Source: Escherichia phage SUT_E1620. Taken from it: a DNA stretch of 64,000 bases. The notes beneath the pieces are model-generated. The model was not told the origin of the DNA. It searched no databases and was given only the letters and a program-made list of their open reading frames with translations. How positions within the stretch are numbered: position 1 is the stretch's first letter; each line of letters starts with the position of its first letter. Location: sequence record OQ939939. One strand, given 5' to 3'. Shown here in pieces: positions 3,430 through 55,646 of this stretch. Position numbers and translations under genes: made by a program.

Positions 3430-3702
3430 TTACTCTTTACTGCCTGCGATAATACCTAAGTTATATACGGCAAGCATAGCCCTAAGGGTAGGATCTTGAG
3501 ACTCAGAACACAGTTTAATAAAACCTTCTTCATCCCATTGCTCTACATTGCCAAACATATCCACTTTTAATACTACCTTATCAAGGGTAGGGGGTGCTAC
3601 AATCACATCATAGAAATTCGGGTGTTGATTAACATCAATCTCTATTTGATTAGGATCAGCAAAATTATTTACTTCCTGAGCTTCCAAAGCCGCCTTCTCC
3701 AC
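3430..3702 (-). CDS. Hypothetical protein (90 aa)
   Basis: Six-frame ORF; overlaps start of downstream dUTPase gene in operon-like fashion. Confidence 0.5.
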   Translation of the reverse strand: MEKAALEAQEVNNFADPNQIEIDVNQHPNFYDVIVAPPTLDKVVLKVDMFGNVEQWDEEGFIKLCSESQDPTLRAMLAVYNLGIIAGSKE

Positions 3703-45780: not shown

Positions 45781-46621
45781 TAAATTAGAGAACAGCGAGC
45801 CGATTACGCTGAGTGAGTTTAGTGATTCCTACTAGGATAGCTATTCCACTGAATAGAGTCGGTGAGTTGGAGACTAGTAAGTACTCTGAGAGAGGCTACG
45901 AGCTAACGCTTATTGCTATTGATAGGGAACTGAAAATCTGCGGAAAACTCGGGAGCTGTCCCGAAATCTCGTAAACTCTTCTCTAGTTTATGTTAGTGGG
46001 GTGTCGAACTGACTTATGTGATAACACTGCCGTCCTAGTATAAACGGTAATATCAAACCGTAACTGGTGGAAGATGCAGGTTCGAATCCTGCGGTCGGAA
46101 AGAATCAGATAACTCGGGCTTATACCGGATAAGCATTCGCTGCTGGAGTACATACTATGACGGTTCAGGAGGTACGCCGCCTGATCAGTATTAGGTTAGA
46201 ATCGAAACAGCTAAACCACGAGGAAACCTGACGGCCTCAACCAAACTCGGAACTCGGGATCACTGCCTAGTGTGTGCCCCGTTTAACATAGAGACTAGGC
46301 ATCGAAAATCGGAGGTGTGATTCTACCAGACCGCGTGAATATGAGAGTGGGAAATGCTGGCATGAGAGATGTCACTAATGGTGCCCAATAGTACAGGTAA
46401 TTCGCGATAATTCCTGTTGAGTGGCAGCAGTAGGCTGGGAGTCATGACCTAAGCCTAACCGAGTTCTTCACATACGGAGAACATAACCACAAAGTCACCC
46501 TGACTTAAACTGGAGGATATTGTCTGACGGAAGGGCTGCAGAGCTTAATCTGAGGGGGCTGACCCTACCTACCGTCGGGTATCTTTAAGAGCTTTTATAA
46601 GAGTTCTTAAAAATACCTAAA

Positions 46622-48500: not shown

Positions 48501-48575
48501 GGTTCTCAAGCTCATTTGGTATGAGCCGTCGCCTCATAAGCGAAAGGTAGGTAGGTTCGAATCCTCCGGGAGCCA
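48501..48575 (+). tRNA. tRNA with CAT anticodon (Met, fMet or Ile-lysidine)
   Basis: Acceptor GGTTCTC/GGGAGCC, anticodon loop CTCATAA, T-loop TTCGAAT, CCA encoded. Confidence 0.7.
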
Positions 48576-48595
48576 CCAATTAACTAGGAGACTAT

Positions 48596-48782: not shown

Positions 48783-49121
48783 ATGGATATTTTTACTACT
48801 CCGGCAATAAACCTTTTAGGTGTTGGCTTGTTCCAAGCTACGGTGTATCGTACTGATGATTCTACTGATGTGGTAACGTTCATCGTACCTGAGTTCTTCC
48901 TAGAAAAGTTCTTTGAAGAGTTTGAGCAGTTCCGTGAAGAACACAATGCTCATTCCGATATGGAAGATCTAGCAGCTATGTTCCCTGCGGTTTACGGCTA
49001 TATCTTTGAAGGTAATGGCCTAGATCTTAATAAATCTGAACTCGTTGAACTTAACTGGGGCATCAATTTTGAAGTTGGCTCTCCATTCCCTCGATATTTC
49101 CAGGGTTTAGAGATTCGCTAA
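48783..49121 (+). CDS. Hypothetical acidic protein (~112 aa)
   Basis: ATG (MDIFTT) immediately after upstream stop; acidic composition. Confidence 0.55.
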   Translation: MDIFTTPAINLLGVGLFQATVYRTDDSTDVVTFIVPEFFLEKFFEEFEQFREEHNAHSDMEDLAAMFPAVYGYIFEGNGLDLNKSELVELNWGINFEVGSPFPRYFQGLEIR

Positions 49122-49129
49122 GATTACAT

Positions 49130-49203
49130 GGGGGTGTAATCGAATTGGCATAGGTACTGGACTTAAAATTCAGGTTTTGTGGGTTCGAATCCCACCACCC
49201 CTA
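49130..49203 (+). tRNA. tRNA with TAA anticodon (Leu-type decoding UUA) but short variable loop
   Basis: Acceptor GGGGGTG/CACCCCT, anticodon stem-loop CTGGA-CTTAAAA-TTCAG, T-loop GTGGGTTCGAATCCCAC, A73, CCA. Confidence 0.6.
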
Positions 49204-49357
49204 CCAAATTAAGGAAATAAAATGAAAGCTATTAAGAAAGCACTACGTAAATTTATGTACTGTCGTTTTCATAGCATCAAGGCTTCAACTAATGGTACGA
49301 CTTACGATCGCTATGATCCTAAGTTTGGCTTACATTCTAAATAACTGGAGATAATAA

Positions 49358-50118: not shown

Positions 50119-50196
50119 TGGGGGATTGGCTCAGTGGCGACGGCGCCTGGCTGTAGACCGGGTATATCACGCGGAGGTTCGAGTCCTCCATCCCCC
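50119..50196 (+). tRNA. tRNA-Tyr (anticodon GTA)
   Basis: Acceptor GGGGGAT/ATCCCCC, anticodon stem-loop CCTGG-CTGTAGA-CCGGG, extended variable region, T-loop GGAGGTTCGAGTCCTCC, CCA. Confidence 0.7.
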
Positions 50197-50207
50197 ACCA
50201 AATTTAA

Positions 50208-50377: not shown

Positions 50378-50941
50378 ATGTTTAAGACAATACCTGAATT
50401 TCCTATGTATAAAATTTCTGAAACAGGCAAAGTTTACTCATTGCATGTTAACAGAGAAATAGCTACTTATCTTAACAATAAAGGTTATCCATGTGTTAAG
50501 CTAAGTAAAAATGGTGTTGAGCATACTCTTTTAATATCTAGACTATTATGCAGAGTATTTAAAGATTTAGAAGATCTTTATTCCTCTAAAGAAGTAGACC
50601 ATAAAGATAGAAATCCGGCAAATTTTGAACTAAGCAACCTACAAGTTCTTAGTAAAGAAGAGCACGTAATAAAAACATGTTCTGATAACAATATTAGTAG
50701 AAGAACGGATGTTTGTCCTATTTGTGGTGATACTAAGCATAAATCCTCAAAAGCCTGCTTAAAGTGTACTGCTTCGGCTAGGATTAAGAGTAGAGATATT
50801 ACAAAAGAAGATATAGAGTATTGGGTACGAAACTTCTCCTGGGCTAGAGCTTCAAGAGAACTTGGACTATCTGATAATGGACTCCGAAAGAGATATAAGG
50901 CTCTTGGGGGAGACCCTAAAAATATTTGCACCTTTAGCTGA
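50378..50941 (+). CDS. HNH homing endonuclease with C-terminal DNA-binding module
   Basis: HNH core (EVDHKDRNPANFELSNL), Cys cluster, C-terminal LSDNGLRKRYKALGG shared with ORF 52201..52782. Confidence 0.75.
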   Translation: MFKTIPEFPMYKISETGKVYSLHVNREIATYLNNKGYPCVKLSKNGVEHTLLISRLLCRVFKDLEDLYSSKEVDHKDRNPANFELSNLQVLSKEEHVIKTCSDNNISRRTDVCPICGDTKHKSSKACLKCTASARIKSRDITKEDIEYWVRNFSWARASRELGLSDNGLRKRYKALGGDPKNICTFS

Positions 50942-50999
50942 GATGGATTAGCGCTTGCCTGAAGAGCTTGAGAGGTTGGATCGTTACCAACGGGGTGCA
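50928..50999 (+). tRNA. Candidate tRNA-Phe (anticodon GAA) with non-canonical T-loop and weak anticodon stem
   Basis: 7/7 acceptor pairing GCACCTT/GGGGTGC, D-stem GCTG/TAGC, anticodon loop CTGAAGA, T-stem GTTGG/CCAAC with loop ATCGTTA (54/58 swapped), A73-CCA; anticodon stem has two U-U mismatches. Confidence 0.45.
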
Positions 51000-51019
51000 C
51001 CAATTTGAAGGAGATGCTG

Positions 51020-51825: not shown

Positions 51826-51905
51826 GGGTCGTTAGCCAAGCGGTTTGGCGGTGGACTGTTAATCCATGTCGAAAGACAACGTAGGTTCGAATCCTACACG
51901 GCCCG
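51826..51905 (+). tRNA. tRNA with GTT (Asn) anticodon and a 13-nt hairpin variable arm
   Basis: Acceptor GGGTCGT/ACGGCCC, D-stem GCCA/TGGC, anticodon stem-loop GTGGA-CTGTTAA-TCCAT, variable arm GTCGAAAGACAAC, T-loop GTAGGTTCGAATCCTAC, G73, CCA. Confidence 0.6.
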
Positions 51906-52011
51906 CCATATTCTGTGTAGAGTTAAGTAAACCGGTAGCCAACCAGTTATCATTGCTGATATCGAATTCAGTCACAGATACCATTTTTCATTAACAACTG
52001 AGGAAATAGAT

Positions 52012-55549: not shown

Positions 55550-55627
55550 GGGGATGTGGCGAAATTGGCAGACGCGCTAGATTTAGGTTCTAGTCTTCGG
55601 GTGTGGGTTCGAGTCCCTCCATCCCTA
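55550..55627 (+). tRNA. tRNA-Leu (anticodon TAG)
   Basis: Acceptor GGGGATG/CATCCCT, anticodon stem-loop CTAGA-TTTAGGT-TCTAG, extended variable region, T-loop GTGGGTTCGAGTCCCTC, A73, CCA. Confidence 0.7.
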
Positions 55628-55646
55628 CCAAACATTGGATTAACTC

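What the first reader, a model, noticed from the sequence alone, without database searches (positions are those of the whole stretch)
49130..49203. Class-I-shaped tRNA carrying a Leu-type UAA anticodon
The fold gives anticodon loop CUUAAAA (anticodon UAA, decoding UUA) with only a 5-nt variable loop and A73. Bacterial tRNA-Leu normally has a long variable arm, and the island already has a canonical long-arm tRNA-Leu(UAG) at 55550. This suggests an unusual Leu isoacceptor or a tRNA of altered identity.
Basis: seen in the sequence. Interest (0 to 1): 0.4.

Follow-up and report, generated by a model that had tools for sequence, protein, structure and literature searches.

The report
Short-armed phage leucine tRNA (UAA)
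This is a real, conserved leucine tRNA of a T5-like phage that reads the phage's favourite leucine codon (UUA) but lacks the long extra arm normally seen in bacterial leucine tRNAs. It belongs to a large, apparently undescribed family of such "short" leucine tRNAs in phages and tRNA gene arrays.

Summary
ARAGORN and the Rfam tRNA model (57.4 bits) both call a tRNA at 49130..49206 with anticodon loop CUUAAAA (UAA), a 5-nt variable loop (GUUUU), A73 and an encoded CCA. No alternative register is supported.

It is best read as a genuine tRNA-Leu that has lost the extra arm, not a tRNA of altered identity.
- Its D-arm (3-bp stem, 11-nt loop GAAUUGGCAUA) matches E. coli tRNA-Leu.
- It carries the E. 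coli LeuRS identity set: A73, A14, A15-U48, G18G19, A20a, U54-A58.
- An anticodon-blind isotype classifier places it with long-arm Leu tRNAs.
- The gene is 77/77 identical in relatives whose flanks are 89-94% identical.
- UUA is the phage's commonest Leu codon.

Scans with the D-loop/T-arm signature, anticodon left free, returned Leu anticodons almost exclusively: 118 of 120 in viral contigs and 124 of 124 in genome contigs. More than 100 non-redundant short forms carry all six Leu anticodons, with strong covariation. Ser and Tyr tRNAs in the same loci keep their long arms.

The "canonical long-arm" Leu(UAG) at 55550 is itself reduced (81 nt). Charging by host LeuRS is inferred, not shown. The only bacterial type I tRNALeu studied so far (Streptomyces) was not charged by E. 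coli LeuRS.

The parts
49130..49206 (+). Whole tRNA-Leu(UAA) gene, 77 nt, type I (short variable loop), CCA encoded
   Evidence: ARAGORN, Rfam RF00005 at 57.4 bits, structure. Identical (77/77) in relatives with 89-94% identical flanks and >=99% identical in 292 phage records.
49130..49136 (+). Acceptor stem 5' strand GGGGGUG. It pairs with 49196..49202 (CACCCCU) and includes a G1.U72 wobble.
   Evidence: G1.U72 is also present in E. coli leuZ tRNA-Leu(UAA) and in 38 of 102 family members.
49139..49155 (+). D arm: 3-bp stem AUC/GGU and 11-nt loop GAAUUGGCAUA (G13 A14 A15 U16 U17 G18 G19 C20 A20a U21 A22)
   Evidence: E. coli Leu tRNAs have the same geometry, with loops GAAUCGGUAGA, AAAUUGGUAGA and GAAUUGGUAGA. 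In the window only the two Leu tRNAs have an 11-nt D loop.
49157..49173 (+). Anticodon arm: stem CUGGA/UUCAG, loop CUUAAAA (49162..49168), anticodon UAA at 49164..49166, A36-A37-A38 motif
   Evidence: The MFE fold gives the same hairpin. MiaA and TrmL determinants are taken from PMC4615657.
49174..49178 (+). Variable loop GUUUU (5 nt). The last base is U48, partner of A15 (49144) in the Levitt pair.
   Evidence: The 15-48 pair is A-U in 101 of 102 family members.
49179..49195 (+). T arm GUGGG-UUCGAAU-CCCAC (U54 U55 C56 ... A58)
   Evidence: G53, U54, C56, A58 and C61 are invariant in the family, though part of this is fixed by the search pattern.
49203..49206 (+). Discriminator A73 followed by the encoded CCA
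   Evidence: A73 is invariant in the 102 aligned family members and was not part of the search pattern.
48783..49121 (+). Upstream small ORF on the same strand, ending 8 nt before the tRNA (context: the tRNA is embedded in a polycistronic unit)
   Evidence: Sequence. Annotated as a hypothetical protein in bobsandoy, SuperGirl and S113 at the equivalent position.
49222..49344 (+). Downstream small ORF starting 15 nt after the CCA, with AAGGA upstream (context)
   Evidence: Sequence. Annotated CDS in relatives.
55550..55630 (+). Companion tRNA-Leu(UAG), 81 nt, Leu-type D arm (AAAUUGGCAGA), reduced 8-9-nt variable region CUUCGGGU
   Evidence: The isotype classifier gives Leu 54.4 bits.

Best explanation
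It is a functional, phage-encoded leucine tRNA that has lost the long extra arm (a "type I" tRNA-Leu).

Shown: the gene, its cloverleaf, its register, its conservation, and its membership of a large covarying family restricted to Leu anticodons.

Inferred:
1. It is transcribed with the flanking small ORFs and cut out by host RNase P and 3' nucleases. The CCA is already encoded.
2. Host LeuRS charges it with leucine. In E. coli that enzyme reads A73 and the elbow architecture (A14, A15-U48, G18G19, A20a, U54-A58), not the anticodon or the extra arm, and the tRNA has all of these.
3. Host MiaA/MiaB and TrmL (with MnmEG) modify A37 and U34, because their determinants lie in the anticodon stem-loop (A35, A36-A37-A38, pyrimidine 34). 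This restricts reading to UUA and UUG.
4. It supplies decoding capacity for UUA, the phage's most frequent Leu codon, in a host where UUA is a minor codon and whose DNA T5-like phages destroy.

Why the arm was lost is not established.
For: - Gene and register.
- Leu-type D arm identical in geometry to E. coli leuZ, leuW and leuQPV.
- E. coli Leu identity set, with the extra arm and anticodon dispensable: review PMC9976931 and PMC6614811 introduction. Every listed nucleotide is present in the window tRNA.
- Anticodon-blind, variable-region-blind isotype HMMs, with the Leu model trained only on long-arm tRNAs lacking my search signature: Leu 41.5 bits, Lys 33.3, Tyr 31.5. The classifier is right for 23 of 27 window tRNAs.
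- Family scans with the anticodon unconstrained: 118 of 120 viral hits and 124 of 124 genome hits have Leu anticodons. Short forms carry UAA, UAG, CAA, CAG, AAG and GAG.
- Of 173 tRNAs with exactly this architecture, 154 have Leu anticodons.
- Covariation over 102 non-redundant members: 98.8% of cells paired, 737 double-sided changes, score 0.93 against 0.23 shuffled, slid controls 34-46% paired.
- Arm loss is Leu-specific: Leu 267 short / 134 long, Ser 4 / 148, Tyr 1 / 64. This fits SerRS needing the arm and LeuRS not needing it.
- Purifying selection: 77/77 identical against flanks of 89-94% identity.
- Codon usage: UUA is 23.5% of Leu codons in 70 window ORFs, against 13% in an E. coli sample. 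CUA is 17% against 4%.
- TrmL and MiaA need only the anticodon stem-loop, and an E. coli tRNALeu lacking the whole variable arm is expressed and methylated normally (PMC4615657).
Against: - No aminoacylation, expression or modification data exist for this tRNA. Charging is inferred.
- E. coli LeuRS did not charge the only bacterial type I tRNALeu studied, Streptomyces tRNALeu(CAA) (PMC6614811). That tRNA ends its variable loop in C48 rather than U48.
- The E. coli LeuRS leucine-specific domain is reported to favour tRNAs with a large variable-arm loop (PMC3643597).
- Position 20 is C here, whereas it is always U in E. coli tRNALeu.
- The isotype margin over Lys is only about 8 bits.
- The family survey is biased. 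A14, A15, G18, G19, A20a and much of the T arm were fixed by my search pattern. The sequences were pre-filtered by ARAGORN, so the percentage paired is partly by construction. The loci were chosen because they contain such tRNAs.
Confidence: 0.85

Rival explanations
1. Altered identity: a class I tRNA (for example Phe GAA with G34 changed to U, or a Lys or Ile relative) whose anticodon drifted to UAA. It would then insert a non-Leu amino acid at UUA/UUG, or read all UUN codons.
For: It has a class I shape and A73. UAA is one change from GAA. ARAGORN lists no tRNA-Phe in the window. Lys is the second-best isotype model at 33.3 bits.
Against: - The window has a tRNA-Phe(GAA) orthologue of T5's at 50928..51002.
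- Phe is not in the top three isotype models.
- Of the E. coli PheRS determinants I recall (U20, G27-C43, G28-C42, G34, A35, A36, G44, U45, U59, U60, A73; from memory, not checked here), the tRNA lacks U20, G27-C43, G28-C42, G34 and U59 (sequence).
- LysRS, IleRS and TyrRS need anticodon bases that are absent here (established identity rules).
- Family members with the same body carry CUN-box Leu anticodons, which only an anticodon-independent Leu identity explains.
Confidence: 0.04
2. Primarily an anti-defence tRNA. It is still a Leu acceptor, but the loss of the extra arm and the altered loop (C32) were selected so that it escapes host or competitor tRNA-targeting nucleases or toxins that recognise host tRNA-Leu, rather than for codon supply.
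For: T5-family tRNAs are documented to neutralise tRNA-cleaving defences: tRNA-Lys against PARIS and tRNA-Tyr against retron Eco7 (titles and abstracts of PMC11464382 and PMC11555353). A toxin study (MenT3 and tRNA-Ser) turned up in my search for papers on variable-arm length; only its abstract was seen, which says it prefers serine tRNAs (PMC11541572). The window's Tyr and Leu(UAG) are trimmed too. Short forms are concentrated in phage contigs and tRNA arrays.
Against: No defence system that targets tRNA-Leu through its extra arm was identified here. Codon usage alone already explains a UUA reader. Arm loss is seen only for the isotype whose synthetase tolerates it, which fits neutral or streamlining loss equally well.
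Confidence: 0.08
3. Decaying or non-functional tRNA relic (pseudogene) that merely keeps a tRNA-like sequence.
For: The single-sequence MFE fold is not the cloverleaf and is not significantly stable (z = -1.2). The D stem is weak (A-U, U-G, C-G). T5-like islands contain tRNA-like remnants, for example the 46029 hit, the T5 "tRNA-like" RNAs and the APCEc03 chimera.
Against: It is 77/77 identical across relatives with 6-11% flank divergence and >=99% identical in 292 records. It scores 57.4 bits, in the middle of the range of the island's tRNAs. All tertiary and identity nucleotides are intact. Family-wide compensatory changes occur in all four stems.
Confidence: 0.03

Closest known systems
E. 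coli / enterobacterial type II tRNA-Leu, especially tRNA-Leu(UAA) leuZ
   Same: Same anticodon and almost the same anticodon loop (CUUAAAA against UUUAAAA). Same 3-bp D stem and 11-nt D loop with A14, A15, G18G19 and A20a. U48, A73 and even the G1.U72 wobble are shared.
   Different: It has no extra arm: 5 nt (GUUUU) instead of 15 nt with a 5-bp stem. C20 and U21 replace U20 and G21, and C32 replaces U32. No significant nucleotide similarity to any E. coli chromosomal tRNA was found by blastn.
Streptomyces coelicolor type I tRNALeu(CAA) (Fan et al. 2019, PMC6614811)
   Same: A bacterial-system tRNA-Leu with a 5-nt variable loop that coexists with type II Leu tRNAs and a single LeuRS.
   Different: That tRNA is chromosomal and its variable loop is ACAGC, ending in C48. 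A73 is not an identity element for its LeuRS, and E. coli LeuRS cannot charge it. The phage tRNA keeps the E. coli-type identity set (A73, A15-U48) and works in hosts with an E. coli-type LeuRS.
Animal mitochondrial type I tRNA-Leu(UUR)
   Same: UAA-type anticodon, short variable loop, A73 and A14 as identity elements (PMC9976931).
   Different: Mitochondrial tRNAs are structurally relaxed and are read by a dedicated LeuRS. The phage tRNA has a fully canonical elbow (G18G19, UUCGAAU T loop).
Engineered E. coli tRNALeu variants lacking the variable arm (Larkin et al. 2002 minimal tRNAs; the VLAD mutant in PMC4615657)
   Same: A Leu body without the extra arm that still works with E. coli enzymes. 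The minimal tRNAs are leucylated if A73 and the D/T-loop tertiary pairs are intact (PMC9976931). VLAD is expressed in vivo and methylated by TrmL.
   Different: Those are laboratory constructs. This is a natural, conserved gene family.
T5 tRNA-Leu1(UAG) (T5t10)
   Same: A Leu tRNA in the same kind of T5-family tRNA island. T5's own annotation reports that it becomes an amber suppressor when its anticodon is replaced.
   Different: T5's is a normal 85-nt long-arm tRNA. ARAGORN found no short Leu(UAA) in the 20-kb T5 tRNA region I fetched.

Membership tests
tRNA (RF00005) | Cloverleaf with a 7-nt anticodon loop (U33, purine 37), T loop UUCRANY and G18G19, scoring above the Rfam gathering threshold | tested here: met
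   57.4 bits against a threshold of 29, full-length 1-71 match. ARAGORN call.
Bacterial tRNA-Leu (E. coli LeuRS identity set) | Discriminator A73 | tested here: met
   A at 49203. Invariant in 102 family members and not part of the search pattern.
Bacterial tRNA-Leu (E. coli LeuRS identity set) | A14 and the A15-U48 Levitt pair | tested here: met
   A14 and A15 at 49143-49144, U48 at 49178. A-U in 101 of 102 members. U48 was not in the search pattern; A15 was.
Bacterial tRNA-Leu (E. coli LeuRS identity set) | Leu-type D arm: 3-bp stem, 11-nt loop with G18G19 at loop positions 6-7 and A20a | tested here: met
   GAAUUGGCAUA against E. coli GAAUUGGUAGA, GAAUCGGUAGA and AAAUUGGUAGA. Across 2111 tRNAs, 310 of those with this geometry have Leu anticodons; the next isotype is Ser with 31.
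Bacterial tRNA-Leu (E. coli LeuRS identity set) | D/T-loop tertiary pairs G18-U55, G19-C56 and U54-A58 | tested here: met
   T loop UUCGAAU and G18G19 are present. The three-dimensional pairing itself is not testable here.
Bacterial tRNA-Leu (E. coli LeuRS identity set) | Long variable arm (type II shape). It is typical of the family but reported as not required for E. coli leucylation. | tested here: not met
   5-nt variable loop. Dispensability comes from PMC9976931. This is a descriptive hallmark, not an identity determinant in E. coli.
Bacterial tRNA-Leu | Actually aminoacylated with leucine by the host LeuRS | not testable with these tools
   Needs an aminoacylation assay or a charged-tRNA assay. 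The caveat is that E. coli LeuRS failed on Streptomyces type I tRNALeu.
Bacterial tRNA-Leu | Body sequence closest to tRNA-Leu when the anticodon is hidden (isotype model) | tested here: met
   Home-made isotype HMMs: Leu 41.5, Lys 33.3, Tyr 31.5 bits. tRNAscan-SE itself was not available.
Type I (class I) tRNA shape | Variable region of 4-5 nt without a stem | tested here: met
   GUUUU.
tRNA-Phe (rival) | G34 A35 A36 anticodon plus the PheRS core determinants (U20, G27-C43, G28-C42, U59, U60; recalled from memory) | tested here: not met
   U34, C20, C27-G43, U28-A42 and A59. Phe is not among the top isotype scores. A separate tRNA-Phe(GAA) lies at 50928..51002.
Ochre suppressor tRNA (rival register) | Anticodon UUA read from the loop | tested here: not met
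   The loop is C32 U33 U34 A35 A36 A37 A38 in ARAGORN, Rfam and the MFE fold, so the anticodon is UAA, not UUA.

The most novel reading that the evidence does not exclude
Short-variable-loop (type I) tRNA-Leu is not a Streptomyces or mitochondrial curiosity. It is a large mobile family carried by phages and tRNA arrays across many bacterial phyla, with all six Leu anticodons. It is charged by ordinary type-II-adapted LeuRS enzymes, including E. coli's. Loss of the arm may be adaptive, for example through escape from tRNA-targeting nucleases or toxins or through faster processing, rather than neutral. This would revise the published view that bacterial LeuRS enzymes other than Streptomyces' only handle type II tRNALeu.
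Probability: 0.3. Interest if true: 0.65.

Novelty: new member of a known kind. Interest (0 to 1): 0.45.

Why it matters
The gene itself is routinely annotated "tRNA-Leu" in hundreds of T5-like phage records, so its existence is not new. What appears undescribed in the literature I could search is that it is a type I tRNA-Leu working in the best-studied LeuRS system (E. coli/Salmonella), and that it belongs to a very large family of short Leu tRNAs in phages and tRNA arrays.

The one experimental paper on bacterial type I tRNALeu states that almost all bacterial tRNALeu are type II and that Streptomyces LeuRS is the only prokaryotic LeuRS able to charge both types. A natural E. coli-phage substrate makes that claim directly testable. 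It is also a natural experiment on which class II tRNAs can lose the arm: Leu can, Ser cannot. It is relevant to engineering compact orthogonal or suppressor Leu tRNAs. Finally, it bears on how phage tRNAs diverge structurally from host tRNAs, which matters for tRNA-targeting defence systems.

Tried and rejected
- Host origin: blastn of the tRNA against 5,426 E. coli genomes found only 23-nt T-arm matches on plasmids, so there is no close host tRNA.
- "Phe is missing, so this is a mutated Phe": rejected after the weak Rfam hit at 50928 proved orthologous to T5's annotated tRNA-Phe(GAA).
- T5 itself as a reference for this tRNA: T5 has only a normal 85-nt Leu(UAG), and ARAGORN found no short Leu in the 20-kb tRNA region I fetched.
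- Using A15-U48 and A73 alone as Leu-specific marks within the window: rejected, because many tRNAs of this AT-rich phage also have A15/U48 and A73. The specific feature is the D-arm geometry together with these nucleotides.
- Single-sequence thermodynamic folding: uninformative.
- Promoter and terminator scan around the gene: fewer promoter-like sites than in shuffles and nothing usable.
- Literature searches for a prior description of phage short-arm tRNA-Leu: none found. This does not prove absence, since the older T5/BF23 tRNA papers from subscription journals are not in the library.
- The primary paper on minimal E. coli tRNALeu (PMC115294) is not held, so I relied on the review's summary.
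- One search call failed on a term shorter than three characters.

Full report
**What is there.** The window is the tRNA island of a T5-like phage (Demerecviridae, Epseptimavirus-like). A 1.9-kb query around the finding matches 495 phage records, mostly Salmonella and Escherichia phages. ARAGORN finds 27 tRNAs, including tRNA-Leu(taa) at 49130..49206. Rfam's tRNA model matches 49130..49203 end to end at 57.4 bits, in the middle of the range of the island's other tRNAs. It aligns CUUAAAA as the anticodon loop with high posterior probability. The structure has these parts:
- a 7-bp acceptor stem with G1.U72
- a 3-bp D stem and an 11-nt D loop, GAAUUGGCAUA
- a 5-bp anticodon stem and the loop CUUAAAA
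- a 5-nt variable loop, GUUUU
- a canonical T arm
- A73 and an encoded CCA

The single-sequence MFE fold keeps the same anticodon hairpin but mispairs the weak D arm, and it is not informative.

**Is it a Leu tRNA or something else?** Four lines of evidence point to Leu.

First, the D arm matches E. coli tRNA-Leu. I fetched leuZ, leuW and leuQPV from MG1655. All have the same 3-bp D stem and 11-nt D loop (GAAUCGGUAGA, AAAUUGGUAGA, GAAUUGGUAGA), with G18G19 and A20a at the same places. LeuZ (UAA) even shares G1.U72. In the window only the two Leu tRNAs have an 11-nt D loop.

Second, the E. coli LeuRS identity set is complete. According to the 2023 identity review and the Fan et al. introduction, it consists of A73, A14, the A15-U48 Levitt pair, G18G19, A20a and the D/T-loop tertiary pairs. 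The anticodon and the long arm are dispensable, and minimal tRNALeu without the arm is still charged. Every one of these nucleotides is present here.

Third, an anticodon-blind classifier says Leu. I built per-isotype profile HMMs from about 1,700 tRNAs found in the fetched loci. The anticodon was masked and the variable region removed. The Leu model was trained only on long-arm tRNAs that lack my search signature. This classifier gives the anticodon's isotype for 23 of 27 window tRNAs. It puts this tRNA with Leu at 41.5 bits, then Lys at 33.3 and Tyr at 31.5, with Phe not in the top three. A published tRNAscan-SE table for another enterobacterial phage shows the same pattern for its Leu tRNAs, with Leu first and Lys close behind.

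Fourth, Phe is not missing. The idea that this is a mutated Phe lost its motive when the weak Rfam hit at 50928..51002 turned out to be the orthologue of T5's annotated tRNA-Phe(GAA).

**Relatives.** The tRNA is >=99% identical in 292 phage records. It is 77/77 identical in bobsandoy, SuperGirl and S113, whose flanking DNA is only 89-94% identical. That is purifying selection, as for the neighbouring tRNAs.

More distant phages carry 77-nt short-loop tRNAs with the same body but the anticodon UAG: Tequintavirus SPC35, Vibrio phage JSF12 and Aeromonas phage LAh_8. T5 itself has a normal 85-nt Leu(UAG).

I then scanned IMG/VR with the D-loop/T-arm signature, leaving the anticodon free and the variable region free in length. 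About 50 distinct ones are short (74-78 nt), with anticodons UAA, UAG, CAA, CAG or AAG. All carry Leu anticodons: CAG 41, UAG 25, CAA 24, AAG 16, UAA 14, GAG 4. Most lie in dense tRNA arrays of 8-37 tRNAs per 8 kb or less. Only an anticodon-independent Leu identity explains one body type carrying anticodons from both Leu codon boxes and essentially nothing else.

Across all 2,111 distinct tRNAs in the fetched loci, the split by variable-region length is specific to Leu:

| Isotype | Short | Mid | Long |
|---|---|---|---|
| Leu | 267 | 9 | 134 |
| Ser | 4 | 1 | 148 |
| Tyr | 1 | 2 | 64 |

This matches the rule that SerRS needs the arm and E. coli-type LeuRS does not.

An alignment of 102 non-redundant short Leu tRNAs (<88% identical) is gap-free. 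One sequence with a shifted 3' end was left out. A14, G18, A20a, A22, U33, G53, U54, C56, A58, C61 and A73 are invariant, and 15-48 is A-U in 101 of 102. All four stems covary: 98.8% of cells paired, 737 double-sided changes, score 0.93 against 0.23 shuffled, and slid controls of 34-46% paired. Short forms are usually each other's nearest neighbours (155 of 165), so they look like a lineage rather than many independent deletions. The sample is biased, however.

**Caveats on that survey.** The D-loop and T-arm nucleotides were fixed by my pattern, so their invariance is partly by construction. A73, U48, the anticodon and the stems were not fixed. ARAGORN pre-selects foldable sequences. The loci were chosen because they contain such tRNAs.

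**What it does.** In 70 ORFs of the window (16,292 codons), UUA is the most used Leu codon at 23.5% of Leu, and CUA is 17.4%. In a small E. coli sample these are 13% and 4%, and CUG dominates at 46%. The phage's two Leu tRNAs (UAA and UAG) read exactly the codons it over-uses. The anticodon loop carries A35, A36-A37-A38 and a pyrimidine at 34. These are the determinants for MiaA and TrmL, which do not care about the variable arm. Host modification, and hence UUA/UUG-restricted reading, is therefore expected. The gene sits 8 nt after one small ORF and 15 nt before the next on the same strand, so it is probably cut out of a polycistronic transcript.

**What remains inferred.** Nobody has shown that this tRNA is charged.
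- The only experimental study of a bacterial type I tRNALeu found that E. coli LeuRS could not charge the Streptomyces tRNALeu(CAA). That tRNA's variable loop ends in C48, not U48, so it probably lacks the A15-U48 element that the phage family keeps.
- The E. coli LeuRS leucine-specific domain is reported to favour a large variable-arm loop.
- E. coli Leu tRNAs always have U20 where this one has C20.

I therefore put 0.85 on "functional Leu acceptor reading UUA/UUG". Small weights go to altered identity (0.04), a primarily anti-defence role (0.08) and a dead relic (0.03).

**Novelty.** The gene is annotated tRNA-Leu in most relatives. Its odd shape is not mentioned in anything I could search. 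The one relevant paper says that almost all bacterial tRNALeu are type II and that Streptomyces LeuRS is the only prokaryotic LeuRS known to charge both types. I file it as a new member, in fact a large set of members, of a known kind: type I tRNA-Leu. It is moderately interesting because it is directly testable in the E. coli system.

**Correction to the finding.** The tRNA-Leu(UAG) at 55550 is not canonical. It is 81 nt, and its variable region CUUCGGGU can form at most a tiny C-UUCG-G hairpin. The window's tRNA-Tyr is also trimmed, at 81 nt against 88 nt in T5.

Noticed in passing
window 50928..51002 (+): A tRNA-Phe(GAA) that ARAGORN misses (Rfam 33.4 bits). It is identical to T5's annotated tRNA-Phe over the 5' two-thirds but has a different T arm, and its anticodon stem has two U.U mismatches.
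   Followed up: partly
window 55550..55630 (+): tRNA-Leu(UAG) of only 81 nt with an 8-9-nt variable region (CUUCGGGU). This is a rare intermediate class: 9 of 410 Leu tRNAs in the survey.
   Followed up: partly
window 50120..50200 (+): tRNA-Tyr of 81 nt with a variable region of about 9 nt and no stem, against 88 nt in T5. Tyr tRNAs almost always keep the long arm in the survey (64 long, 2 mid, 1 short). T5-family tRNA-Tyr is reported to counter a retron defence.
   Followed up: no
window 51826..51908 (+): tRNA-Asn(GUU) of 83 nt with an unusual 12-nt variable region (UCGAAAGACAAC). The isotype classifier scores it Cys above Asn.
   Followed up: no
window 46029..46100 (+): A weak tRNA-like element (Rfam 29.3 bits, just at threshold) that ARAGORN does not call. 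It may be a tRNA remnant of the kind T5's record annotates as tRNA-like RNAs.
   Followed up: no
L004 1001..1077 (Escherichia phage APCEc03): A chimera of the 5' half of the short Leu(UAA) tRNA and the 3' half of the short Leu(UAG) tRNA. Its acceptor halves do not pair and ARAGORN does not call it. It looks like a deletion by recombination between the two paralogues.
   Followed up: partly
L052 about 3442..3521 (IMG/VR UViG_3300021400_001287): An 80-nt tRNA with the Leu-type D loop (GAAUUGGCAUA) and A73 but the anticodon CUA. It is a candidate leucine-inserting amber suppressor on a 91-kb viral contig.
   Followed up: no
L129, L133, L154, L159, L161, L166 and about 20 more genome loci (Clostridia/Lutispora MAGs): Nearly identical short tRNA-Leu(CAG) genes, each the only tRNA in up to 8 kb. 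These may be chromosomal rather than phage type I tRNALeu in a Clostridia lineage.
   Followed up: no
L136 and L157 (Tumebacillus avium chromosome CP021434.1); L131, L140, L155 (Effusibacillus, Tumebacillus): Short tRNA-Leu(CAA) genes inside tRNA arrays (4-21 tRNAs per 8 kb) of cultured Bacillota genomes, two of them in one complete chromosome.
   Followed up: no
window 48501..48578 (+): The tRNA called Met(CAU) here corresponds by position (next to Ser-GCU) to T5's tRNA-Ile2(CAU). The isotype classifier scores it Asn, Phe and Ile rather than Met, so it is probably a lysidine-dependent Ile tRNA.
   Followed up: no
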